A DNA stretch of 64,000 bases from a phage: assembly GCA_024613925.1 (NCBI GenBank), contig GCA_024613925.1_4713.1; one strand, 5' to 3'. The translations under genes and the position numbers were made by a program. Numbering within the stretch: the first letter of the stretch is position 1; every line of letters begins with the position of its first letter. Below are positions 36,890 to 45,800 of this stretch, piece after piece. The notes under the pieces were generated by a model that saw only the letters and a program-made list of their open reading frames with translations, was not told the origin of the DNA and did no database searches.

Positions 36890-37165
36890 TTATTTCGAGG
36901 TTAACCACGATTCAATTGTGGTGAGTTTGCTTCTCAGTACGCGCCAACTAGGGTGTGGTGGGATCACAGCGCCTTTGTCGATTACGGTTAGCTGAACCTG
37001 GTACTTCTGTTGCATACGTGCTACCGTGTCGCTTATCGAGAGGAAAAGCTGGTAACGTTCATATGCCGTCAGTTCACTGTCCTGTTGAACTGCGTTGGCC
37101 GCTAACGTAATTTCGCGTAAGTCCTTTGCATCCACAGAGACGGTAATGAGTTTATATTGACTCAT
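36890..37165 (-). CDS. hypothetical protein
   Basis: 91-aa ORF, co-oriented with the downstream large genes. Confidence 0.4.
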   Translation of the reverse strand: MSQYKLITVSVDAKDLREITLAANAVQQDSELTAYERYQLFLSISDTVARMQQKYQVQLTVIDKGAVIPPHPSWRVLRSKLTTIESWLTSK

Positions 37166-37226
37166 ACGGTTTCCTTATCAACTAGGGTATTGCAGATACA
37201 ATACCCGTCGTCGGACGATAAGTTAA

Positions 37227-39785
37227 TTACTGCTCTTCACGTTCCAGCAGATACTCGGAAGCGGTAATACCGTTTACCGTACGTACTGCTTTCAGACGAG
37301 TATCATCACTCAGAATCACGGTAACAGATTGCAGACCTTTTACTTTGGTTTCGAAGGTCTTGAACACCTGATCCAGCATACGAGCAATGCTTGGGTTGGT
37401 TGCAGCCGATGCGTGAGTGTAACCGCTCTGGTTCAGCTTCAGAATCTTGGCGTTGGTCGGTACGCGAACAACAACATGCGGACGCATCGCGAACACGCTG
37501 TGATTAAACCAGTAAGCATCGTTGCTATCTTCGTCGGTAACGATGTCCGGATTAACACGCATATCCTCGATAGCCGCATCCGCCAAACGACGTTCGATTT
37601 CGTCAGCATCCAGAGAGCCATCTTTCTCCAGTTCTGCACGATACTCGCTCATGGCAACCAGATGACGTTCACGATTCGCTGCGGATTTTTCGTGAGCTGC
37701 TTTCAGGTAGTCATGCATGTTGTACAGTTCAGCCATGGAAAGACGAATGTTCCACTGACCTTCGCCATCACGATTGCAGTAGAGACACTTCAGCATGTTG
37801 ACCCAGGTGTAGTAGCAATTGGAGAACTCATCTTCAATGAACTTCTGGTCCATTTTAAGATCGTGAATCAGCCAACCGGACAGTTCTCCGATATCATCAA
37901 CGAAGCTAGAGATGGTGGTTTCAGAGAAGTTCTTCGGTACGATACGTTTGATCAGCTTATTGACGTCTTTGGTCATGCTATCGTTCAGGAAATGCCAGAT
38001 ACGCAGAGGAATGACATCTCGATACTGTTGCATGATCTGACGATAAGCTTTGATATCGTCGCTACGACCTTTATCAATAGACAACGCATCCAGGAATTCA
38101 TGGATTGCATCCAGCTCTTTGTCGGTATAGGTTCCCAGATAGGAATTGACGGTGGCCAGGAATGCTAATGCGTCGTTTTGGTTAACGTCGGTGTTGGTCT
38201 GCTGAATGATCGCCACTGCGGCTTTAGTTTCAGCATCCTCAACGCTTGACGCTGCGATTGCATCGGTGACGGTAAACAGTTTCATTTCGCGCTGCTCACC
38301 GACAACGATTGGCTCACGCTGAACCGGCTTGTTAAGACTAACACGAACAACTTCTGCTTGCGCGATGCGATCCAGTTTTGCCATTTCCTGCTCTGCCATA
38401 CGACGAGCGGTTGGATCTGATTCAAGTTCGATGTATTCCACTTCTTCCTCCGTGAGGGATGTAATGTCAACAATGGTTTCATGAAGAATTCCGTTTTCGT
38501 CGATACGTGCCCGACGAGCGAAGTGCCTGAAGTCATACAACGTTGGCCAGCGACTATTAGGTGCGTAGTCTTTGGCTTTCAGACGCATCTGCATAAATTC
38601 TTCATGTTGAACAACACGACCGTAACGCTTAGCATCTTCGGTCGCATCAATTGGATTAACGGTCTTTGTTACCGTAGCGGAACGAGCCGTACGAATGGGT
38701 TCCGGTTTCACCTGCGCAGGTTCAGGTTGAACGGGTTTCTGCTGCCCAGCCTTAACATGCCATTCGGGCTCTTCGTACTGCTCAGCAAATTGCTCAGCCG
38801 CTGCAAAGATATCGTTGATACCACCAATATCTCCTTCAGGATTTGTCGAGTAAATCCGTGGTTGTGGTGCCTCGTAACGCGGCGCTGTAGCAGCAGGTGC
38901 ATCATCAACGATAGGATCGTCATCACCAACATCATACAAACGGTTGAACGCACAATCCTTCGAATCGATGTACGATGGCGCTTGTGGTTGAACAACCGTC
39001 GGCCGAGGTTGTGCGCCGTATCCTGGCGTTGTTGGAGCCATACCACGCATAACTGCCGGATTAGGCCGGTATTGCGGTTGTGGATAGGTTCCACCATACA
39101 TGGCATATGCAGGCTGTTGTGGTTGACCGTACCCGTTGCTAACCATTGCGCTTGCTTGCGGCCCACGATAAGTCATCCCCATCTGCATCACCTGCTGCTT
39201 CAAACCACGTGACTTCTGAGCGATTTGCGCTAGGCTTCCGCTTTTATTCAGCTGCGTGTACTTATTCGCGGCTTCCGGGTTAATGCGTGATAATTCAATC
39301 GCGCGATAATATTCCGGGTACTGATTAGGTTCAAAGAGCCACGTTACAAGATGATACAGCGCAACTGTGCTCACAGCAGCAGAGACGATCTGGTCGTCGG
39401 ACGCGTTCTGCGGCATCGGGTTGATGTAAGAGAACACGTTCCAACAACAGTCTTCAACAAGCGATTCCATCATCATGTCGTTATTGGTATAACGTGCGAC
39501 GAACTCGGTTTGTATTTTGTCTTGCTGAGCGAAGTCTTTCAGGACATTAAAGATAGCTTGACGGATTTTAACGATCGTCGCTTCTTGGGTGATGAAGTTA
39601 TAGTTCTGCTGATATGAGGGTTGTTGGTATTGTGGTGGTTGATAGGCGTTATTCGGGTATGCGCCGTACGGTGATTGCTGATACTGTTGCTGACGAACCT
39701 GTTCAGCCGCATAATTAACCGTGCTCGTATAAGGGTTTTCGCTATAGCCCATTTGTTGATACATGTTGTTACTACCGTTATACAT
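37227..39785 (-). CDS. large protein with Q/Y/P-rich low-complexity N-terminal and internal regions
   Basis: 852 aa; N-terminal about 65 aa and residues about 215..260 rich in Q, Y, P, N, G (YQQ, PQQP, QPQ repeats); long codon-aligned antisense ORFs suggest strong codon bias. Confidence 0.55.
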   Translation of the reverse strand: MYNGSNNMYQQMGYSENPYTSTVNYAAEQVRQQQYQQSPYGAYPNNAYQPPQYQQPSYQQNYNFITQEATIVKIRQAIFNVLKDFAQQDKIQTEFVARYTNNDMMMESLVEDCCWNVFSYINPMPQNASDDQIVSAAVSTVALYHLVTWLFEPNQYPEYYRAIELSRINPEAANKYTQLNKSGSLAQIAQKSRGLKQQVMQMGMTYRGPQASAMVSNGYGQPQQPAYAMYGGTYPQPQYRPNPAVMRGMAPTTPGYGAQPRPTVVQPQAPSYIDSKDCAFNRLYDVGDDDPIVDDAPAATAPRYEAPQPRIYSTNPEGDIGGINDIFAAAEQFAEQYEEPEWHVKAGQQKPVQPEPAQVKPEPIRTARSATVTKTVNPIDATEDAKRYGRVVQHEEFMQMRLKAKDYAPNSRWPTLYDFRHFARRARIDENGILHETIVDITSLTEEEVEYIELESDPTARRMAEQEMAKLDRIAQAEVVRVSLNKPVQREPIVVGEQREMKLFTVTDAIAASSVEDAETKAAVAIIQQTNTDVNQNDALAFLATVNSYLGTYTDKELDAIHEFLDALSIDKGRSDDIKAYRQIMQQYRDVIPLRIWHFLNDSMTKDVNKLIKRIVPKNFSETTISSFVDDIGELSGWLIHDLKMDQKFIEDEFSNCYYTWVNMLKCLYCNRDGEGQWNIRLSMAELYNMHDYLKAAHEKSAANRERHLVAMSEYRAELEKDGSLDADEIERRLADAAIEDMRVNPDIVTDEDSNDAYWFNHSVFAMRPHVVVRVPTNAKILKLNQSGYTHASAATNPSIARMLDQVFKTFETKVKGLQSVTVILSDDTRLKAVRTVNGITASEYLLEREEQ

Positions 39786-39819
39786 TTCTTACGATCCTTT
39801 TTATTTATTCGGTTAGGTG

Positions 39820-41619
39820 TCAATCGATTATGTCGTGATCGTTAATTTCTACAATTTCTTCATCGAATCGACCGACGTCTTTCTTCAAGCCTGCATTGGT
39901 TGCTGCAACGTCATTTGCAATTTGTGGGGTAATGATTAACCGACCGCGTTCGTCGATAGGTGCGTACATACTGAACTTCTGACGTCCGGTTGGTTCGGAG
40001 TGTGGAAGATTCAGATAGCTTGCACAGAACGGGATGGAACCACTAACCAAACGACTCTCGTCAGCCAATGCAGCACCGCCTGCGTTTTGGCTCTGGAGAA
40101 CAACATGCGTGCTCACTTTGAACAGCATGCAATCACCAGGTGACTGAATCGATGTTGCCACTTTTTCACGTTTGTCACGATTGCTCTGGATATTGAGAAT
40201 CGCTTCCGTTGCAACTTGATTTCGCAACGCCTTCTGTACATCGCGATTGGTCATCTCTTTACGGTTGTTCTGTCGTTTACCACGTTCCGTGGTTTTAAGA
40301 TGGAACCCCAGTTTAAAGATGCTCTTACGCACATCCTCCATGACATATTCCAACACCATCAATTCCTTACCGAACATCGTCGTGGTATCAACACGACTCA
40401 TTTCGATAGTGACATTATCAATCAGATACGCCATAAATTCGTAGAAGTCGTCGCAAGGAATATTTTCCTGTTTGAACTTCTTCTGTTGAATCTCGTCAAC
40501 GTAAAGATCGAGACTGTCGATGTGGTGGTTTACATCACGCAACAAACGCGCATCCGCATTGTTGTTATTAAAGATAATCAAACCGAGTAATGTACGCCAA
40601 TGGTCTGGCGCATTCGCGAACTCTTCAACCGGATAGTCTTCCGGAAAACGATCGTAATAACGGTCGATGAGATACAAGAATGCACCGACAAGGCCAAGAA
40701 CAATACGTTCCGTGCCTCCACGTCTTACAGCAATTTGAATATCAGGATGTTTGTAACGTACAGCGCTAGCGCTACGACTTTTACCGCTTTTGCTGATACT
40801 AAAGCCTTTAGGAATAACCCCCATGGTGCGATAGATTACCCATTGGTCACGCGGAAAATCACGTTCAGCAAGGTTCCGTCCGGTTACGGCTTCGACACCT
40901 GCAAAACGTCGGAAACACTCACCCACCCCGTACTTCGCAAAGAGATAGTGACCCAGTGTGGTTACGCTGGTGTGGTTGATGTTGTCGCCGTTCACTTTAC
41001 TTTGTTTGGTAAGATGATAGATTTGCGACCAGGGTAATGACAGGTAATGACGATAATCGATACCGGTCGGTGTATCATTGCTCAGGAACTGATACGGTGT
41101 ACGTTTAACCGTGATTTTGTCACGCGGAAGCATGATGAACGCCATGTCTTTCGTGTAACTGATTACAGGGTCAGCGAGCACCGCACTGAGAATGAAGTTC
41201 GCACCACGTAGACGCATTTTACCACCCTGACCTACTGCGGGCAATAGGAGAGGGTGTCGGATAATACAGTAGTCCTTTCCTGGTTCACGACGGTCACCTG
41301 ATTCCATCGCGCCGTACCAGCGGAATTCTAGCATCACCATAAACACATCGGAAGGCGCAAGGTCGAAGGTCAGCTTACCGCTATCCTTCCCTTTGGTTTT
41401 CTTTCCTCCGCTTAAGTAGTGGAACTGTTCGCGGGCCATACAGCGACGCAGGCCATGATACACCAGATCCTTAGGTAAACTATCTTTGCTGTTCCGCCAA
41501 AGACGATCAACATAGGACTCAACATCTTGCATCTTATCGACGACGATGTTGCGTGCTATCTTCTCGTTCATCTTCGGTGCAAGCTCAGCGACAGCTTTGC
41601 AGAATCTAGGATCCATCAC
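39820..41619 (-). CDS. hypothetical protein
   Basis: 599-aa ORF; no polymerase (NADFDGD-type) or other motif recognised. Confidence 0.5.
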   Translation of the reverse strand: MMDPRFCKAVAELAPKMNEKIARNIVVDKMQDVESYVDRLWRNSKDSLPKDLVYHGLRRCMAREQFHYLSGGKKTKGKDSGKLTFDLAPSDVFMVMLEFRWYGAMESGDRREPGKDYCIIRHPLLLPAVGQGGKMRLRGANFILSAVLADPVISYTKDMAFIMLPRDKITVKRTPYQFLSNDTPTGIDYRHYLSLPWSQIYHLTKQSKVNGDNINHTSVTTLGHYLFAKYGVGECFRRFAGVEAVTGRNLAERDFPRDQWVIYRTMGVIPKGFSISKSGKSRSASAVRYKHPDIQIAVRRGGTERIVLGLVGAFLYLIDRYYDRFPEDYPVEEFANAPDHWRTLLGLIIFNNNNADARLLRDVNHHIDSLDLYVDEIQQKKFKQENIPCDDFYEFMAYLIDNVTIEMSRVDTTTMFGKELMVLEYVMEDVRKSIFKLGFHLKTTERGKRQNNRKEMTNRDVQKALRNQVATEAILNIQSNRDKREKVATSIQSPGDCMLFKVSTHVVLQSQNAGGAALADESRLVSGSIPFCASYLNLPHSEPTGRQKFSMYAPIDERGRLIITPQIANDVAATNAGLKKDVGRFDEEIVEINDHDIID

Positions 41620-41655: not shown

Positions 41656-43098
41656 TTACTTTTTCGATGCCGCTTTCTCAAGAATCTTGAAAAAGGTCAT
41701 ACCTATACCGACAACGGCCGCAGTTATACTCGCAGCGGCTTTCCAAACATCGACGTTACGTTGACGTCGCGCTTCTTCCGCCTCACGTTGTCTTTTTGCC
41801 TCCTCATCACGTCGACGTATCTCAGCAGCAAACTCGTCGTGCTTACGTTTAGCTTCTTCGTCTCGACGACGAAGTTCAGCGACGAATTCTTCATGTTTGC
41901 GTTTAGCCTCGTCATCACGACGTTTTAAATCAGCTTGATAATCTTCGTGTATTTGTCTACGTAGATCATCTTGACGCTTCATTTCGGCTTGGTGTTGTTC
42001 CATCCTACGTTTTTGTTCGTCTTTAAGCTGATCGAGTTCGGCTTTATGTTGTTCATCGCGCAGCTTTGCGTCGGCGCGATGCGCCTCATGCATCTGTGCG
42101 ATAACTGCCTTGTGTTCATCCGCCATACGTCGCATTTCAGCCATCACCCCTTTAAGGGTTTCTTCTGATGCCTTACGTTCGTAGCTACGTTGGTCGAAAT
42201 CATTTTTGTAGGCTTCTTTTTGGATGGGGTCGCGCCAATGCAATGCCGATTCACGTGTCGGAAAAACATTGTACTTCCACATCTCTTTTTCCAAATCTTC
42301 GACCGGTACGAAGATGGAGTCATTATTCCCGAAGGTAACCAACATACCTGGCGCGCCTGCTCCATTCGTTGGTTTTATTTCGAACGCTTTCCCCAGCACG
42401 TTAACCCATAAGCTATACGGATTATGAAAGTCGGGTGGCGTCCAATGGATAGTGAGTTGCGTTCCGAGAATTCGGAAACCCTCTGTTTTTCCCGTCAAGC
42501 TCCGCGCGCACGTTGCGATGTAGGGGTGATCAATCCCTTTCGTAACGTGGTCTGCGCTTTTGTATTCTCCTTTAACTTTTACGATTGCCACGTTGATTTG
42601 CGCGACATAAGCGGGTTGATTAAAGTTCAACGTGTTGAGGTCAATTTGACATATTTCATCCAGCGTATCGTACCAGTCTTGCTGGTCTAATAGGCGCGGC
42701 ATTTTCTCGGTGTTAACAATACGACGGATATGCGGTTTCCTTATCGCGTAACCTGTGCCGTTTTTAACACGGAGTATATCCCGACGTCTACCCGCGTAGA
42801 CGAAGTTTCTGAATGCACCATTCGCATTAGATACGTCATGGCTGTCAACTATTACAGGACTACGAAATTTTGAACGTCGTACGATCCTGAATGTATTGCC
42901 GTCCTCAACCCTACCAGGAATGTACTGGAACATATTGTCGGAGGTGATCACCAACACGGTATGGCCAGATTCATTAATACATGCCCATCCTAATTCCAGG
43001 TCATATAACGGTTCAGCATAACCGTCAATGCGATAAGCGTGCGTACCATCCCACGGTTCGAACGCGGTATCACATATTGGCATGGAGGGCATCGTCAA
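41656..43098 (-). CDS. tail-anchored membrane protein with charged coiled-coil tandem repeats
   Basis: 480 aa; C-terminal hydrophobic helix AAASITAAVVGIGMTFFKIL; repeats RRDEEAKRKH(E/D)EF(V/A)AE(L/I)R; likely ATG start at about 43092 with GGAGG 6 nt upstream. Confidence 0.5.
   Translation of the reverse strand: MTMPSMPICDTAFEPWDGTHAYRIDGYAEPLYDLELGWACINESGHTVLVITSDNMFQYIPGRVEDGNTFRIVRRSKFRSPVIVDSHDVSNANGAFRNFVYAGRRRDILRVKNGTGYAIRKPHIRRIVNTEKMPRLLDQQDWYDTLDEICQIDLNTLNFNQPAYVAQINVAIVKVKGEYKSADHVTKGIDHPYIATCARSLTGKTEGFRILGTQLTIHWTPPDFHNPYSLWVNVLGKAFEIKPTNGAGAPGMLVTFGNNDSIFVPVEDLEKEMWKYNVFPTRESALHWRDPIQKEAYKNDFDQRSYERKASEETLKGVMAEMRRMADEHKAVIAQMHEAHRADAKLRDEQHKAELDQLKDEQKRRMEQHQAEMKRQDDLRRQIHEDYQADLKRRDDEAKRKHEEFVAELRRRDEEAKRKHDEFAAEIRRRDEEAKRQREAEEARRQRNVDVWKAAASITAAVVGIGMTFFKILEKAASKK
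41735..41945 (-). repeat. in-frame tandem DNA repeat (about 48 bp units) encoding the coiled-coil repeats
   Basis: recurring cgtttagc(t/c)tc.tc.tc.cgacg units read directly; boundaries approximate. Confidence 0.55.
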
Positions 43099-43329: not shown

Positions 43330-43428
43330 CTGACTTATGTATCACGGTGCCGGATGAATGTCCGGTGCAATGAAACCATCCGCAACGTTGTCGTCAAGAA
43401 TATCGTCCAACGAAGCAGCTACGGTAGT

Positions 43429-45651
43429 TCAGTTAGTCTGAACAGGCAGCTTGATGTTTTCAGTGTAGACCTTACGCAGGTTCACAACGTTAATCAGACC
43501 CAGCAGCGGGCAGTTGTTAACGAAGCGGCAGCGCGGCTGAACCATGGTTTCTTTAGAAACCTGACCGTTACGGGTAACCTGAGCAACAGATACCAGTTCC
43601 GGTACGTACAGGAACATACCGAAGGTCAGCGGATCCGGAGAACCCTGGATACCACGAGACAGGGTCACGAAGATCTTATCACGCAGCAGGACGTTCGGGT
43701 TATCTACAACCACGAAGTTGAAGCTTACACCAACGGTACGGAAATCACCATCGGTCTGCAGGAACTGCGGGATGTAGTTGTCAGTTGCTACTACGCAACG
43801 CGGTTTCTCATCAGCGTTGGAAGACAGCAGCTGCAGAGCTGGCTGATAACCAGACTCGGAGTACATGCGATATGCCATCTCACGAATCACGTTCATGATC
43901 GCAGCGGACACTTCAGCACGACGTTCTGCAGTGGTGGTACCCTGAACAGATTTCTCCAGGTCCAGATTGATTTCTTCGAACCACGGACGGATCAGGTAAC
44001 GACCGAAACCTTCGATCTGGATGTCGCCGAACTGACGGAAGCGAGAGGTCGCAACCGCTTTCAGTGCGTCTTTGTAGCTGAACAGTTTCTCAACCATCAG
44101 GTTGTCGAAACGTGCGTTAGCAGCTTGGATCAGAACGTCCAGGTCGGCAGCGTTTTCTTCCCAATCCAGCGGACGAGGAATGGAGAACGGAGCCAGCAGG
44201 CCGATTGCGTAACGTTCTTGCTTCATGTTGAAGTCAAGGTGCTTACCGCGTTCACGACGGTTGCTGTTGTTACGACGGATACGCAGTTCGTAACCAACCA
44301 GTTTGAAGCTCAGGTCTTCAGCCAGTTGTTTGAACTCTTCGCTCTTACGCGGTTGTTCGATGTTGTCCTGATCAACCAGGCGATACAGTTCAGCGTTAGC
44401 GCCGTTAACACGCAGACCGGCTTTCTCTACGTTGGAAGAACCGTAAACTTCGATTGCCAGCTGAGCAGCGGATTTCGAATCGATGATGTCCTGCAGCGCT
44501 TCAGCTCGTGCACCTTTAACGTCAACGGTGTGCTCATCAACGAAGATGGAGTGGGTGTCGAACGCCAGGGTCATTTTGCGGAAGTCGCCTTCCAGGGATT
44601 TCTGGAAACCGTTGGTGATCAGACCAGATACGTCGAACGGTACGTAAGAGGTTTTGCTGTGCTTGGTAGATTTGATTTCCACCAGGATTTTGGTCAGCGT
44701 GATCTGGGCGTCCAGCGCATCGGTGTTGTCGCTGTAACCGTTAGCCAGGATGCTATCGTCTTCAGCAATACCGATCATGTCGATCAGTTTATCAACAGCC
44801 AGGTAAGACGTTTTATAAGTTACGCCTTTAATTTCGATGTTGCGCGGAGCAACGATAGCTTTGTCAACGAAGTACTGCGCGTTGGCATCGTCAGCACGAT
44901 AGATCGGATGCAGATCGGTCACGTCGTTGGACAGAACGTCGTTGTACATGAACGCATCCAGCAGCGGACGACGTACCCAATCAGCCGGAGTACCGTCAGC
45001 GTTACGACGCAGGTGGTTGAACACCAGCGGACGACGGAAAGATACGTCGTAACCGATCTGGTTCGGAGCCAGAACGATGGTGTTATACAGTTCGTTACCC
45101 ATGCGGCTCAGACGAGAAGCCTTCACGTTGAACACAACGGAGTACGGCATCATGTCACGCAGTTCTTTCTGGTCGTAAGACAGCTGAACCAGTTCTTCAG
45201 ATTCGCAACCGCAGGAATCAGCAGCCATCATGACGAAGTTAGAGCTGTCAACTTCACGGCCAGACGGAGTGGTGCTGATGTTCATGGAACGTGCTTGTTT
45301 AGCGTATTCCACCGGGTTACCATGAGCCAGCATGATCAGTGCTGCTGCACGAGCCTGCTGTGCGTTCATGGTGAACAGCTGTTCTTCAATACGCTGCTTC
45401 TCTTCCGGAGTGGTGGTTTCGAAGCCCAGCATGGACAGAACCGGTTCTTCTGCTTTACGGATGTCGCTGCTGAAGCTCTTAACATCCATTTCGTTAACCA
45501 GTTTGTCCATGGATTTGAAATCAACCTTAGAAGCAGATTCCATAGACAGGAAGGTGTTCTCCAGACCTTTGTCTGCTGGTTTGCTACCATTAGCGGTCAG
45601 GAACTGGCGAGTGGCCGCGACCTGTTGGCTAAGAAGGGTTTTATCATTCAT
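43429..45651 (-). CDS. major virion structural protein (major capsid protein-like; tail sheath not excluded)
   Basis: 740 aa, a size typical of giant-phage major capsid proteins; the whole gene lacks TTA, CTA and TCA codons (hence the 766-codon antisense ORF), indicating strong expression bias; flanked by a strong terminator. Confidence 0.45.
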   Translation of the reverse strand: MNDKTLLSQQVAATRQFLTANGSKPADKGLENTFLSMESASKVDFKSMDKLVNEMDVKSFSSDIRKAEEPVLSMLGFETTTPEEKQRIEEQLFTMNAQQARAAALIMLAHGNPVEYAKQARSMNISTTPSGREVDSSNFVMMAADSCGCESEELVQLSYDQKELRDMMPYSVVFNVKASRLSRMGNELYNTIVLAPNQIGYDVSFRRPLVFNHLRRNADGTPADWVRRPLLDAFMYNDVLSNDVTDLHPIYRADDANAQYFVDKAIVAPRNIEIKGVTYKTSYLAVDKLIDMIGIAEDDSILANGYSDNTDALDAQITLTKILVEIKSTKHSKTSYVPFDVSGLITNGFQKSLEGDFRKMTLAFDTHSIFVDEHTVDVKGARAEALQDIIDSKSAAQLAIEVYGSSNVEKAGLRVNGANAELYRLVDQDNIEQPRKSEEFKQLAEDLSFKLVGYELRIRRNNSNRRERGKHLDFNMKQERYAIGLLAPFSIPRPLDWEENAADLDVLIQAANARFDNLMVEKLFSYKDALKAVATSRFRQFGDIQIEGFGRYLIRPWFEEINLDLEKSVQGTTTAERRAEVSAAIMNVIREMAYRMYSESGYQPALQLLSSNADEKPRCVVATDNYIPQFLQTDGDFRTVGVSFNFVVVDNPNVLLRDKIFVTLSRGIQGSPDPLTFGMFLYVPELVSVAQVTRNGQVSKETMVQPRCRFVNNCPLLGLINVVNLRKVYTENIKLPVQTN

Positions 45652-45800
45652 TGAAAGTATCCTTTACAGAATTAACTTATATAAGTCGGTCGATAGACCA
45701 TAGCGTACACGCGTGCATGCGCCACTATAGTATCAGTAAACACTTACCGTTATTGAGGTCGTGATACAACACTAAAAATGCCGCATAACTTTTCCCTACG

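What the first reader, a model, noticed from the sequence alone, without database searches (positions are those of the whole stretch)
37227..39785. 852-aa protein with Q/Y/P-rich low-complexity (prion-like) regions
The N-terminal about 65 residues (NMYQQMGYSENPYTST...QQQYQQSPYGAYPNNAYQPPQYQQPSYQQNY) and a second stretch near residues 215..260 (GYGQPQQPAYAMYGGTYPQPQYRPNP...PTTPGYGAQPRPTVVQPQAPSY) are strongly enriched in Q, Y, P, N and G, while the rest looks like ordinary folded sequence. Such composition is unusual for phage proteins and suggests self-association, condensate formation or binding to host polymers. The gene sits in the same co-oriented block as the major structural gene and shows strong codon bias.
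Basis: seen in the sequence. Interest (0 to 1): 0.6.

Follow-up and report, generated by a model that had tools for sequence, protein, structure and literature searches.

The report
Goslar-type JADA protein with sticky disordered arms
The Q/Y/P-rich protein is real, and it is the E. coli jumbo-phage (Goslar-type) version of JADA, a recently described essential early protein of nucleus-forming phages that the bacterial Avs5 defence senses; the "prion-like" stretches are its disordered linker plus an extra N-terminal tail, and their function is still untested.

Summary
A minus-strand ORF at 37227-39785 encodes 852 aa with two strongly Q/Y/P/N/G-enriched, nearly uncharged stretches (residues 1-63 and 206-272). 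They exceed every composition shuffle and every other ORF in the window.

The window is a ~98% relative of Escherichia phage Goslar, and the ORF is Goslar gp038. Four lines identify it as the Goslar-lineage ortholog of JADA (Pa36 gp316 = phiKZ gp124, PDB 9RP3; Mol Cell 2026):
- Invariant position directly downstream of the nvRNAP-subunit gene.
- Profile-profile homology: 98.3%, E=2e-14.
- A predicted C-domain whose only PDB match is 9RP3 (E=8e-14).
- The same N-domain / disordered linker / C-domain layout.

JADA is early, abundant, important for phage growth, located at the early-infection vesicle, and is the Avs5 trigger. Its own function is unknown.

LCR2 is the local form of JADA's disordered linker. 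LCR1 is an added tail. All 33 orthologs examined carry such low-complexity arms, either Q/N/P/G/Y/M-type or R/D/E/G/S-type. In the Goslar clade the arms are under purifying selection (dN/dS 0.11-0.18).

A multivalent-interaction or condensate role is plausible but untested. An amyloid prion or a collagen-like fibre is unlikely. This is a member of a known family, of moderate interest.

The parts
37227..39785 (-). CDS of the 852-aa JADA ortholog (= Goslar gp038, YP_009820723); stop codon TAA at 37227-37229
   Evidence: ORF list and translation. 98.8% aa identity to Goslar gp038. Family assignment.
39597..39785 (-). LCR1: N-terminal Tyr/Gln/Asn/Pro-rich tail, residues 1-63. Lineage-specific addition; 14 gapped alignment columns against P0003/P0004.
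   Evidence: 70% QYPNG, charged fraction 0.05, 12 Tyr spaced 3-10 residues apart. Indels in A1. dN/dS 0.13-0.18. pLDDT below 50.
39171..39596 (-). N-terminal helical domain, residues 64-205. Positional counterpart of JADA N-domain 1-170.
   Evidence: All-helical with the highest pLDDT (50-63) in an otherwise poor model. Collinear with ortholog N-domains in A2, but the profile match is not significant (E=0.15).
38970..39170 (-). LCR2: Pro/Gln/Tyr/Gly/Ala-rich part of the interdomain linker, residues 206-272. Counterpart of JADA's disordered linker 171-269.
   Evidence: 60% QYPNG, charged fraction 0.06. pLDDT 21-26. A low-complexity stretch sits in the N-terminal half of all 33 orthologs, between the two domains in most. 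dN/dS 0.11.
38559..38969 (-). Second part of the disordered region, residues 273-409. Acidic segment with the conserved motif AFNRLYDVGDDDP, then a P/E/Q/K/V-rich stretch.
   Evidence: Charged fraction 0.28, net charge per residue -0.11. pLDDT below 50 in both models. The YDV motif aligns with phiKZ gp124 and 201phi2-1 gp204.
37230..38558 (-). C-terminal domain, residues 410-852. Homologous to the dimeric JADA C-domain, which is the part sensed by Avs5. Carries a ~90-aa helical insertion at about residues 680-770.
   Evidence: hhalign 98.3%, E=2.2e-14 over residues 408-677. AF2 core pLDDT 70-88. Foldseek hits 9rp3_A/B at E=8e-14 and 2.6e-12, with the next hit at E=0.44. 22 jumbo-phage hits in BFVD.
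39795..39800 (-). Shine-Dalgarno-like AAAGGA, 9 nt upstream of the ATG
   Evidence: Read directly from the sequence.
39820..41619 (-). Upstream co-oriented gene: non-virion RNA polymerase subunit (phiKZ gp123 homolog), 34 nt before the JADA start. This is the family's defining neighbour.
   Evidence: phrog_2943 'polymerase' at 7e-120. tblastn hits phiKZ gp123 and 235 jumbo-phage records.
41656..43098 (-). phiKZ gp122-like gene, part of the conserved MCP / gp122 / gp123 / JADA block
   Evidence: Synteny tables. Prichard ortholog table.
43429..45651 (-). PhiKZ-type major capsid protein gene at the head of the co-oriented block
   Evidence: Pfam PF25620 at 1e-216.

Best explanation
SHOWN. [quoted passage not shown] JADA is a Chimalliviridae-specific non-virion protein whose gene always follows the nvRNAP-subunit gene.

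The protein has five parts:
- A Tyr/Gln-rich tail (residues 1-63).
- A helical N-domain (64-205).
- A Pro/Gln/Tyr/Gly-rich stretch (206-272).
- An acidic, then P/E/K-rich stretch (273-409). Together with the previous part this forms a ~200-residue disordered linker.
- A C-domain (410-852) with the JADA fold.

TAKEN FROM ORTHOLOGS, not tested here. The protein is made early and abundantly. It dimerises through the C-domain. It gathers at the early-infection (EPI) vesicle and is needed for normal phage transcription and nucleus-shell protein levels. Its C-domain is what the bacterial Avs5 NADase senses.

INFERRED MECHANISM FOR THE LOW-COMPLEXITY PARTS. They are flexible, multivalent interaction arms. 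Each dimer projects two linkers, and in Goslar two extra tails. Regularly spaced Tyr and Gln/Pro (Arg/Asp/Gly/Ser in other lineages) would make weak, many-point contacts with each other or with RNA or protein partners. This would help concentrate the protein into foci at the vesicle or nascent nucleus, while the linker lets the N-domain reach partners away from the C-domain dimer.

They are not an amyloid prion and not a structural fibre.

My confidence is about 0.9 for the identity and about 0.4 for this role of the arms.
For: Genome context:
- The window is 98.3% identical to Goslar DNA, and the protein is 98.8% identical to gp038.
- The MCP / gp122-like / nvRNAP-subunit / 650-980-aa protein order holds in all 22 loci inspected, including a metagenomic relative.
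- Prichard et al. place Goslar gp038 in the phiKZ gp124 ortholog column.

Homology:
- A profile of the C-terminal regions of 10 syntenic orthologs hits PDB 9rp3 'Gp316/JADA' at 5e-119, and phiKZ gp124 differs from that chain at one residue.
- hhalign of the Goslar group against the 20 other orthologs gives 98.3%, E=2.2e-14.
- The AF2 C-domain model (pLDDT 64, core 70-88) matches only 9rp3 in the PDB, at E=8e-14 and target-normalised TM 0.53-0.56.
- The same model matches 22 jumbo-phage proteins in BFVD, some from lineages absent from the MSA.

The arms:
- Low-complexity stretches occur in the N-terminal half of all 33 orthologs.
- Both arms have dN/dS of 0.11-0.18, equal to the folded N-domain.
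- Tyr is evenly spaced and charge is near zero.

Biology from the literature:
- PMC12931631: early, abundant, EPI-vesicle foci, C-domain dimer, disordered linker, Avs5 trigger.
- PMC12571901: knockdown lowers plaque yield and ChmA and perturbs phage transcription.
Against: Limits on the homology evidence:
- Sequence similarity to JADA is very low: BLASTP E=4e-4 over 90 residues.
- A leave-Goslar-out HMM does not recover the ORF.
- N-domain homology is not significant (E=0.15).
- The AF2 alignment contained phiKZ-group sequences, so the fold match is not fully independent. About 45 residues near the C-terminus are misaligned in it.

Limits on the role of the arms:
- No experiment exists.
- JADA is diffuse when expressed without infection, and Avs5 activation needs only the C-domain.
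- Linker sequence is unalignable between genera, and its chemistry switches class. That also fits a passive spacer.
- Expression timing, dimerisation and localisation are extrapolated from Pseudomonas phages.
Confidence: 0.6

Rival explanations
1. Passive entropic linker. The low-complexity stretches only provide length and flexibility between the N-domain and the C-domain dimer. Their Q/Y/P composition is a drift outcome with no specific interactions.
For: - Linkers cannot be aligned between genera, and composition switches from Q/N/P/G/Y/M to R/D/E/G/S in five lineages.
- The distance between conserved anchors stays within 196-338 residues.
- The C-domain alone triggers Avs5.
Against: - Within the Goslar clade, LCR1 and LCR2 have dN/dS of 0.11-0.18, as constrained as the folded N-domain. 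LCR2 has no indels across up to 20% protein divergence.
- LCR1 is a terminal tail, not a linker.
- Tyr reaches 12-19% and is regularly spaced. Both alternative chemistries are 'sticky' (Tyr/Gln or Arg), unlike Gly/Ser-type neutral spacers.
Confidence: 0.27
2. True prion-like or amyloid-forming domain. The Q/N/Y-rich tail and linker switch the protein into a self-templating aggregate.
For: LCR1 has 37% Q+N, 19% Tyr, 5% charged and 3% aliphatic residues over 63 residues.
Against: - Pro is 10% in LCR1 and 19% in LCR2. By general knowledge of yeast prion-domain composition (not tested here), proline strongly disfavours amyloid cores.
- The segments are only 63-67 residues long.
- Orthologs replace them with highly charged R/D/E tracts.
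- Recombinant JADA purifies as a soluble dimer.
- No prion predictor could be run.
Confidence: 0.04
3. Host-mimicry arm. LCR2 plus the acidic YDVGDDDPIVDD segment imitates the Gly/Gln/Pro-rich disordered linker and acidic tip of host SSB, so as to engage SSB-binding replisome proteins.
For: - G[YW]GQPQQP is shared with the E. coli SSB linker, and an acidic DDDP(I/V) motif follows.
- phiKZ gp124 was reported to co-purify with host DnaX or FtsZ complexes (Van den Bossche 2014, as cited in PMC11849849).
Against: - The local alignment is not significant against composition-preserving shuffles (p=0.024, one of several comparisons).
- There is no DNA similarity to any of 5,426 E. coli genomes.
- The acidic motif is internal, whereas the SSB tip is at the C-terminus.
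- The acidic cluster is absent from phiKZ gp124.
Confidence: 0.04
4. Virion-associated structural or fibre protein with a collagen-like or adhesive segment, as the neighbourhood of the capsid gene might suggest.
For: Co-oriented with the MCP gene and flanked by virion structural genes.
Against: - No G-X-Y periodicity: Gly is 5-12% of the LCRs.
- The Churi ortholog is listed among non-structural proteins expressed at 15 min.
- JADA is an early cytoplasmic, vesicle-associated protein.
- The immediate neighbour is a non-virion RNA polymerase subunit.
Confidence: 0.02

Closest known systems
[quoted passage not shown]
   Same: - Gene directly downstream of, and co-oriented with, the nvRNAP-subunit gene in a Chimalliviridae genome.
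- N-domain / long disordered linker / large C-domain layout.
- C-domain homologous by profile-profile alignment and by predicted fold.
- Linker rich in Q/P/G.
   Different: - About 16% overall identity.
- 852 aa against 721 aa.
- An extra 63-residue Tyr/Gln tail.
- A much more Tyr-rich linker: Tyr is 12% of LCR2 (residues 206-272) and 19% of LCR1 (1-63), against 9% aromatic residues overall in the phiKZ gp124 low-complexity segments.
- A ~90-residue helical insertion in the C-domain.
- E. coli host.
- No experimental data on expression, localisation or Avs5 sensing.
Goslar gp038 (YP_009820723, annotated 'hypothetical protein') and RAY gp4 / 201phi2-1 gp204 / phiPA3 gp140 in the Chimalliviridae ortholog table of Prichard et al. 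2023 (PMC10299810)
   Same: 98.8% identical to Goslar gp038, with the same locus. Prichard's table already groups gp038 with phiKZ gp124.
   Different: Those records carry no function. The held text of the JADA paper does not name the Goslar protein.
Prion-like low-complexity domains of eukaryotic RNA-binding proteins (FUS/hnRNPA1 type), paired with RGG-rich regions
   Same: - Uncharged Q/N/G/P/S matrix with evenly spaced Tyr: LCR1 has Tyr 19%, spacing 3-10 residues, charged fraction 0.05.
- Orthologs in other lineages carry Arg/Gly/Asp/Ser-rich arms with 5-14 RG/GR dipeptides.
   Different: - Much shorter (63 and 67 residues).
- Pro-rich.
- Little Gly or Ser in LCR1.
- No RNA-binding domain identified.
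- No phase-separation data.
- This is a resemblance in composition only, not homology.
Intrinsically disordered linker and acidic tip of E. coli SSB
   Same: Gly/Gln/Pro-rich uncharged linker. Shared octapeptide G[YW]GQPQQP, followed by an acidic DDD-P/I motif.
   Different: - Alignment not significant (p=0.024).
- The motif is internal, not C-terminal.
- No DNA-level relationship.
- The feature is not conserved in orthologs.

Membership tests
JADA (phiKZ gp124 / Pa36 gp316) | Gene lies directly downstream of, and is co-oriented with, a non-virion RNA polymerase subunit gene (phiKZ gp123 homolog) | tested here: met
   The 39820-41619(-) gene matches phrog_2943 at 7e-120 and phiKZ gp123 by tblastn. 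The gap to the ORF is 34 nt. The same order holds in all 22 loci inspected.
JADA (phiKZ gp124 / Pa36 gp316) | Encoded by a Chimalliviridae (nucleus-forming, phiKZ-like) genome | tested here: met
   PhiKZ_MCP Pfam hit at 1e-216. 98.3% DNA identity to Goslar, a nucleus-forming phage.
JADA (phiKZ gp124 / Pa36 gp316) | Sequence homology of the C-terminal domain to JADA | tested here: met
   hhalign gives 98.3%, E=2.2e-14 over 239 columns. BLASTP to phiKZ gp124 gives E=4e-4. The C-terminal end is collinear at E=8e-4. Caveat: a leave-Goslar-out HMM search fails.
JADA (phiKZ gp124 / Pa36 gp316) | C-terminal domain adopts the 9RP3 fold, which has no homologs outside jumbo phages | tested here: met
   The AF2 model (pTM 0.53, core pLDDT 70-88) hits only 9rp3_A/B in the PDB: E=8e-14 and 2.6e-12, target-normalised TM 0.53-0.56, next hit E=0.44. 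BFVD returns only jumbo-phage proteins. Caveat: the MSA included phiKZ-group sequences.
JADA (phiKZ gp124 / Pa36 gp316) | Architecture of N-domain, long disordered or flexible linker, and C-domain | tested here: met
   Composition profile. pLDDT 21-26 over residues 206-300 and below 50 over 301-409, against 50-63 in the N-domain and 70-88 in the C-domain. Collinear alignment A2.
JADA (phiKZ gp124 / Pa36 gp316) | N-terminal domain homologous to JADA residues 1-170 | tested here: inconclusive
   hhalign gives E=0.15, probability below 1%, though the match is collinear. The only model of this part is low-confidence.
JADA (phiKZ gp124 / Pa36 gp316) | Homodimer formed through the C-domain | not testable with these tools
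   Only monomer prediction is available. The dimer is shown for Pa36 JADA by cryo-EM and mass photometry.
JADA (phiKZ gp124 / Pa36 gp316) | Early, abundant expression; important for phage growth; localises to the EPI vesicle; activates Avs5 | not testable with these tools
   Known only for Pa36, phiKZ and Churi orthologs. The sigma-70 scan is uninformative for this phage. Codon bias is moderately above the median.
Prion-like / aromatic-sticker low-complexity domain | Polar uncharged composition (Q/N/G/S/P/Y) with very few charged and aliphatic residues | tested here: met
   LCR1: Q+N 37%, Tyr 19%, charged fraction 0.05, aliphatic 3%. LCR2: charged fraction 0.06, aliphatic 6%.
Prion-like / aromatic-sticker low-complexity domain | Aromatic residues evenly distributed along the segment | tested here: met
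   Tyr-to-Tyr gaps in LCR1 are 7, 5, 5, 6, 10, 5, 3, 5, 5, 5, 4. LCR2 is less regular, with gaps of 3-17.
Prion-like / aromatic-sticker low-complexity domain | Low proline content and a sufficiently long core, as in amyloid-forming yeast prion domains | tested here: not met
   Pro is 10% (LCR1) and 19% (LCR2), and the lengths are 63 and 67 residues. The criterion itself comes from general knowledge. PLAAC and PAPA were not run.
Prion-like / aromatic-sticker low-complexity domain | Demonstrated phase separation or self-templating aggregation | not testable with these tools
   Needs purified protein or live-cell imaging.
Collagen-like fibre segment | Gly at every third residue (G-X-Y repeats) | tested here: not met
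   Gly is 5% of LCR1 and 12% of LCR2, and no periodicity is visible in the sequence. No tandem repeat in the DNA.
SSB C-terminal tail mimic | Significant similarity to the host SSB linker, plus a C-terminal acidic tip | tested here: not met
   Alignment score 49 against shuffles gives p=0.024. The acidic motif is internal. No DNA match in E. coli genomes.

The most novel reading that the evidence does not exclude
The low-complexity arms of JADA are the functional core of a virus-built condensate. Dimers with two to four sticky arms (Tyr/Gln-type in Goslar, phiKZ and RAY; Arg/Gly/Asp-type in PCH45, the FLC phages and the Moabitevirus phages) would form a dynamic phase on the early-infection vesicle or nascent nucleus. 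This phase would capture nascent phage transcripts and nvRNAP or ribosomes, coupling transcription inside the compartment to translation outside. The swap between FUS-like and RGG/RD-like chemistries in orthologs would then be two solutions to the same RNA-centred phase-separation task. That would be a bacterial-virus analogue of eukaryotic RNP granules or of FG-type selective phases.
Probability: 0.12. Interest if true: 0.75.

Novelty: new member of a known kind. Interest (0 to 1): 0.35.

Why it matters
JADA is one of the few Chimalliviridae-specific proteins known to be both important for infection and a target of a dedicated bacterial defence (Avs5). Its own function is still unknown.

Placing the E. 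coli phage protein in this family has three consequences:
- It explains the finding.
- It gives a tractable E. coli / Goslar system for studying JADA.
- It predicts that Avs5-like sensors could recognise Goslar-type phages through residues 410-852.

The comparative result is new relative to the paper's phrase 'long disordered or flexible region'. Every ortholog carries low-complexity arms. The arms come in two 'sticky' chemistries, and in the Goslar clade they are under purifying selection. That turns the arms into a concrete, testable handle on JADA function, through arm deletion, arm swaps and Tyr-to-Ser mutants.

The intragenic mosaic seen in a metagenomic relative suggests that the N-module and the immune-sensed C-module evolve and exchange separately.

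Tried and rejected
- **Family libraries.** Pfam and PHROGs give no family for the ORF. The only Pfam line (Cas9_C_2, E=0.0019, 18.4 bits against a cutoff of 27) is below threshold and was rejected.
- **Single-sequence searches.** Searches of 5.8 billion clusters and 1.84 billion representatives found only Goslar-like proteins, one 36%-identical relative (P0005) and a fragment.
- **Alignment query.** The search for homologous proteins with alignment A3 returned nothing, not even the alignment's own members. This looks technical.
- **Leave-Goslar-out HMM.** It did not detect the ORF. Profile-profile comparison was needed.
- **First AF2 run.** With 5 near-identical sequences it was useless (mean pLDDT 37.9).
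- **N-domain homology.** Not demonstrable.
- **Repeat origin.** No DNA tandem repeats, so expansion by slippage is rejected.
- **Host origin.** blastn against 5,426 E. coli genomes found no match, so the LCR was not recently captured from the host.
- **SSB-tail mimicry.** p=0.024 only, so it is not adopted.
- **Promoter and terminator scan.** Sigma-70 and terminator hits were fewer than chance and say nothing about timing in a phage with its own RNA polymerases.
- **Literature hits for 'gp38' / 'gp038'.** These refer to phiKZ gp38, a different ribosome-associated protein. It is a numbering coincidence.
- **One wasted literature search.** A broad query with too low a minimum number of terms returned nothing relevant.
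- **Other readings.** Collagen-like fibre and virion-protein readings were rejected (see rival explanations).
Full report
**1. The observation**

The coordinates 37227-39785 hold an ATG-initiated ORF of 852 codons on the minus strand. The plus-strand reading is full of stops.

Composition by region:

| Residues | Q/Y/P/N/G | Charged (DEKR) | ILVFMWC |
|---|---|---|---|
| 1-63 | 70% | 5% | 8% |
| 206-272 | 60% | 6% | 12% |
| 381-852 | 17% | 29% | 30% |

- The maximum Q/Y/P/N/G fraction in a 40-residue window is 0.775. In 2000 shuffles of the same protein the mean is 0.466 and the maximum 0.675. The next ORF in the window reaches 0.50.
- The N-terminal tract has 12 Tyr spaced 3-10 residues apart.
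- The coding DNA has no tandem repeats, and CAA and CAG are mixed.
- Codon bias is moderate: Nc is 44.6, the median of 26 other genes is 52.9, and the capsid gene is 30.2.

Only the strand and the phrase 'strong codon bias' need correcting.

**2. Where the window comes from**

- The neighbouring ORF at 43429-45651(-) is a PhiKZ-type major capsid protein (Pfam PF25620, 1e-216).
- The 10 kb around the finding is 98.3% identical to Escherichia phage vB_EcoM_Goslar. Goslar is a jumbo phage of the nucleus-forming family Chimalliviridae.
- The ORF is 98.8% identical to Goslar gp038, which is annotated 'hypothetical protein'.
- Pfam and PHROGs have no family for it.
- Searches of very large protein collections find only Goslar-like sequences and one 36%-identical metagenomic relative, P0005.

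**3. Synteny leads to a family**

The gene immediately upstream (39820-41619, minus strand, 34 nt away) is a non-virion RNA polymerase subunit. It matches phrog_2943 at 7e-120 and is homologous to phiKZ gp123 in 235 jumbo-phage records.

I inspected 20 annotated phage loci plus the P0005 metagenomic contig. The phages were phiKZ, 201phi2-1, Phabio, PS119XW, RTH11, Eowyn, RAY, FBKp24, Totoro, Haymo, PCH45, FLC4-4C, BONAISHI, Yong MS32, JM-2012, Aphrodite1, CF8, EL, Miami and OBP.

- In all of them the gene after this polymerase subunit is co-oriented and encodes a 690-980-aa protein.
- In most of them the capsid gene and a gp122-like gene lie upstream.
- In phiKZ the downstream gene is gp124.
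- The ortholog table of Prichard et al. 2023 already puts Goslar gp038, phiKZ gp124, 201phi2-1 gp204 and RAY gp4 in one column.
- A multiple alignment of ten such proteins is collinear. It shows an N-terminal helical region, an unalignable low-complexity stretch, then shared motifs: P.P.LYDP, LW..LN..LT..VN, I(D).F.ED..EL..YL and a C-terminal I.T.DG..L.

**4. The family is JADA**

- A profile of the C-terminal parts of these ten proteins hits one PDB sequence, 9rp3 'Gp316/JADA', at E=5e-119. phiKZ gp124 differs from that chain at a single residue.
- The source paper is Muralidharan et al., Mol Cell 2026 (PMC12931631). It names Pa36 gp316 JADA, the Jumbo phage Avs5 Defense Activator.

What that paper reports:
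- JADA is early-expressed and Chimalliviridae-specific, and the authors describe it as essential.
[quoted passage not shown] - The C-domain forms a rigid homodimer with a novel fold (2.1 A cryo-EM). There is no density for the N-terminal part.
- It forms foci at the early-infection vesicle during infection, but is diffuse when expressed alone.
- The C-domain suffices to trigger the Sir2 NADase Avs5.
- Its own function is unknown. A role in DNA binding or early transcription is suggested.

Independent data:
- Antisense knockdown of PHIKZ124 lowers plaque yield and ChmA levels. It is among the knockdowns with strong effects on phage transcription at 30 min (PMC12571901).
- The Churi ortholog is a non-structural protein present at 15 min.

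**5. Is the window protein really a member?**

Direct similarity is weak:
- BLASTP to phiKZ gp124 gives E=4e-4 over 90 residues.
- An HMM built from the 20 non-Goslar orthologs does not find the ORF.

Stronger tests support membership:
- hhalign of the Goslar-group profile against the profile of the other 20 gives 98.3% probability and E=2.2e-14 over 239 columns. Residues 408-677 align with JADA 369-629.
- The C-terminal end is collinear at E=8e-4.
- N-domain homology is not significant (E=0.15).

Structure prediction:
- A first AF2 run with five near-identical sequences failed (pLDDT 37.9).
- A second run covered residues 301-852, with 16 admissible sequences from the Goslar and phiKZ groups.
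- It gave pTM 0.53, core pLDDT 70-88, and pLDDT below 50 for residues 301-409.
- Foldseek against the PDB returns only 9rp3_A/B: E=8e-14 and 2.6e-12, probability 1.0, target-normalised TM 0.53-0.56. The next hit is at E=0.44.
- Against BFVD it returns 22 uncharacterised jumbo-phage proteins. These include Miami, Eowyn, RP12, RSF1 and RisingSun, which were not in the alignment.

Caveats: the alignment used for the model contained JADA-group sequences, and about 45 residues near the C-terminus are misaligned in it. The Goslar-type C-domain also carries a ~90-residue helical insertion.

Taken together, position, architecture, profile homology and predicted fold make the assignment secure. I put it at about 0.9.

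**6. What the low-complexity regions are**

- LCR2 (206-272) and the following acidic and P/E/K-rich segment (273-409) occupy the place of JADA's disordered linker.
- The distance between a conserved N-domain anchor and the LYDP motif is 251 residues here, 238 in phiKZ gp124, and 196-338 across 33 orthologs.
- LCR1 (1-63) is an extra N-terminal tail. Similar Q/M/G/N-rich tails occur in RAY, Aphrodite1, CF8, EL and OBP.

All 33 orthologs have at least one low-entropy segment in their N-terminal half. They fall into two chemistries:
- Uncharged Q/N/P/G with Tyr or Met. This class includes Goslar, the phiKZ group, Eowyn, RAY and most of the Vibrio and Aeromonas phages. Q+N is 16-49% and aromatic residues 0-16%.
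- Highly charged R/D/E/G/S tracts with 5-14 RG/GR dipeptides. This class comprises FBKp24, Totoro, Haymo, PCH45 and FLC4-4C.

The arm of Yong MS32 is short and mixed in composition, so it fits neither class cleanly.

dN/dS within the Goslar clade, window against P0003 and P0004:

| Region | dN/dS |
|---|---|
| LCR1 (1-63) | 0.13-0.18 |
| N-domain (64-205) | 0.14-0.15 |
| LCR2 (206-272) | 0.11 |
| C-domain (410-852) | 0.03-0.09 |

LCR2 has no indels. LCR1 shows 14 gapped alignment columns. The arms are therefore conserved as a feature, constrained in sequence over short evolutionary distances, and free to change chemistry over long ones.

**7. Mechanism**

Shown here: the identity and the architecture.

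Imported from orthologs: early abundance, C-domain dimer, vesicle foci, the transcription phenotype and Avs5 sensing.

Inferred: the arms act as flexible multivalent interaction elements. A dimer offers two linkers, and in Goslar two additional tails. Tyr/Gln (or Arg in other lineages) contacts would help concentrate the protein at the vesicle or on RNA and protein partners. The linker would let the N-domain operate at a distance from the dimer.

- The main rival is a passive spacer. It fits the lack of cross-genus conservation and the sufficiency of the C-domain for Avs5 activation. It fits less well with the purifying selection, the terminal position of LCR1 and the Tyr patterning.
- An amyloid prion is unlikely: Pro is 10-19%, the segments are short, orthologs carry charged arms, and recombinant JADA is a soluble dimer.
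- A collagen-like or virion role is rejected.
- An SSB-tail mimicry idea arose from a shared G[YW]GQPQQP and an acidic DDDP motif, plus the reported co-purification of phiKZ gp124 with host DnaX or FtsZ complexes. It is not statistically supported (p=0.024). There is no DNA similarity to E. coli.

**8. Novelty and verdict**

- The protein belongs to a family named and structurally characterised in 2026. Its closest database entry is an unannotated Goslar protein.
- I found no text that explicitly calls Goslar gp038 JADA, but the link follows from published tables.
- The 'prion-like' composition is a lineage-specific flavour of a known disordered linker plus a tail.
- What is new here is the comparative picture: the arms are universal, come in two chemistries and are under purifying selection, and one relative shows a mosaic exchange of modules.
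- That picture gives a testable hypothesis for a protein of unknown function. It does not amount to a new kind of system.
- Interest is moderate, at 0.35.

Noticed in passing
L024 3001-5592 (metagenomic relative P0003) versus window 37227-39785: The gene is an intragenic mosaic. Against the window, codons 1-205 have dS of 1.1-1.25. The C-domain (codons 410-852) has dS of 0.087 and 99% aa identity. P0004 is evenly diverged along its length. This implies a recombination breakpoint inside the disordered region, so the N-module and the Avs5-sensed C-module are exchanged separately.
   Followed up: partly
window 38922-38951 (-), residues 279-288; phiKZ gp124 residues 243-252 (L002): A short motif, A-x-N-x-x-[LA]-Y-D-V-[GP], is conserved inside the otherwise unalignable linker. 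It is shared by the Goslar group, phiKZ gp124 and 201phi2-1 gp204, and could be a linear binding motif. A regex scan across all orthologs was inconclusive.
   Followed up: partly
window 39111-39134 (-), residues 218-225; E. coli K-12 ssb (L025 4126-4662), residues 134-141: The octapeptide G[YW]GQPQQP is shared between LCR2 and the disordered linker of host SSB. In the phage protein an acidic YDVGDDDPIVDD follows, reminiscent of the SSB tip DFDDDIPF. The similarity is not significant against shuffles (p=0.024), and there is no DNA similarity to E. coli genomes.
   Followed up: yes
window 43354-45654 (+): A 766-aa ORF runs antisense to the major capsid gene (43429-45651, minus strand). It has no Pfam or PHROG hit. 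It is most likely a shadow ORF of the very strongly codon-biased capsid gene (Nc 30.2).
   Followed up: partly
window 37185-37206 (-): An 8-bp hairpin, GGGTATTG-TATCTG-CAATACCC, lies 20 nt after the stop codon and 19 nt before the start of the next small gene (36890-37165). No T-run follows it. It could be an RNA-stability or processing element.
   Followed up: no
window 41656-43098 (-): The gp122-like gene lies two genes upstream. Knockdown of its phiKZ ortholog (PHIKZ122) is listed together with PHIKZ124 among those with strong effects on phage transcription. The conserved gp122 / gp123 / JADA block may therefore be one functional module.
   Followed up: no
window 37476-37745 (-), about residues 680-770: The Goslar-group C-domain carries a ~90-residue, largely helical and highly charged insertion relative to phiKZ-group JADA. 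The below-threshold Pfam Cas9_C_2 line falls in or next to it (residues 732-791).
   Followed up: partly
L006 5642-7705 (PCH45); L008 5688-7778 (FLC4-4C); L011-L013: In five lineages the JADA linker is an Arg/Asp/Glu/Gly/Ser tract of 90-150 residues. An example is GGSRRGGRRSSSRGDERRRGRGRGRDRDD. These tracts hold 5-14 RG/GR dipeptides, an RGG/RD-like chemistry typical of RNA-binding disordered regions.
   Followed up: partly
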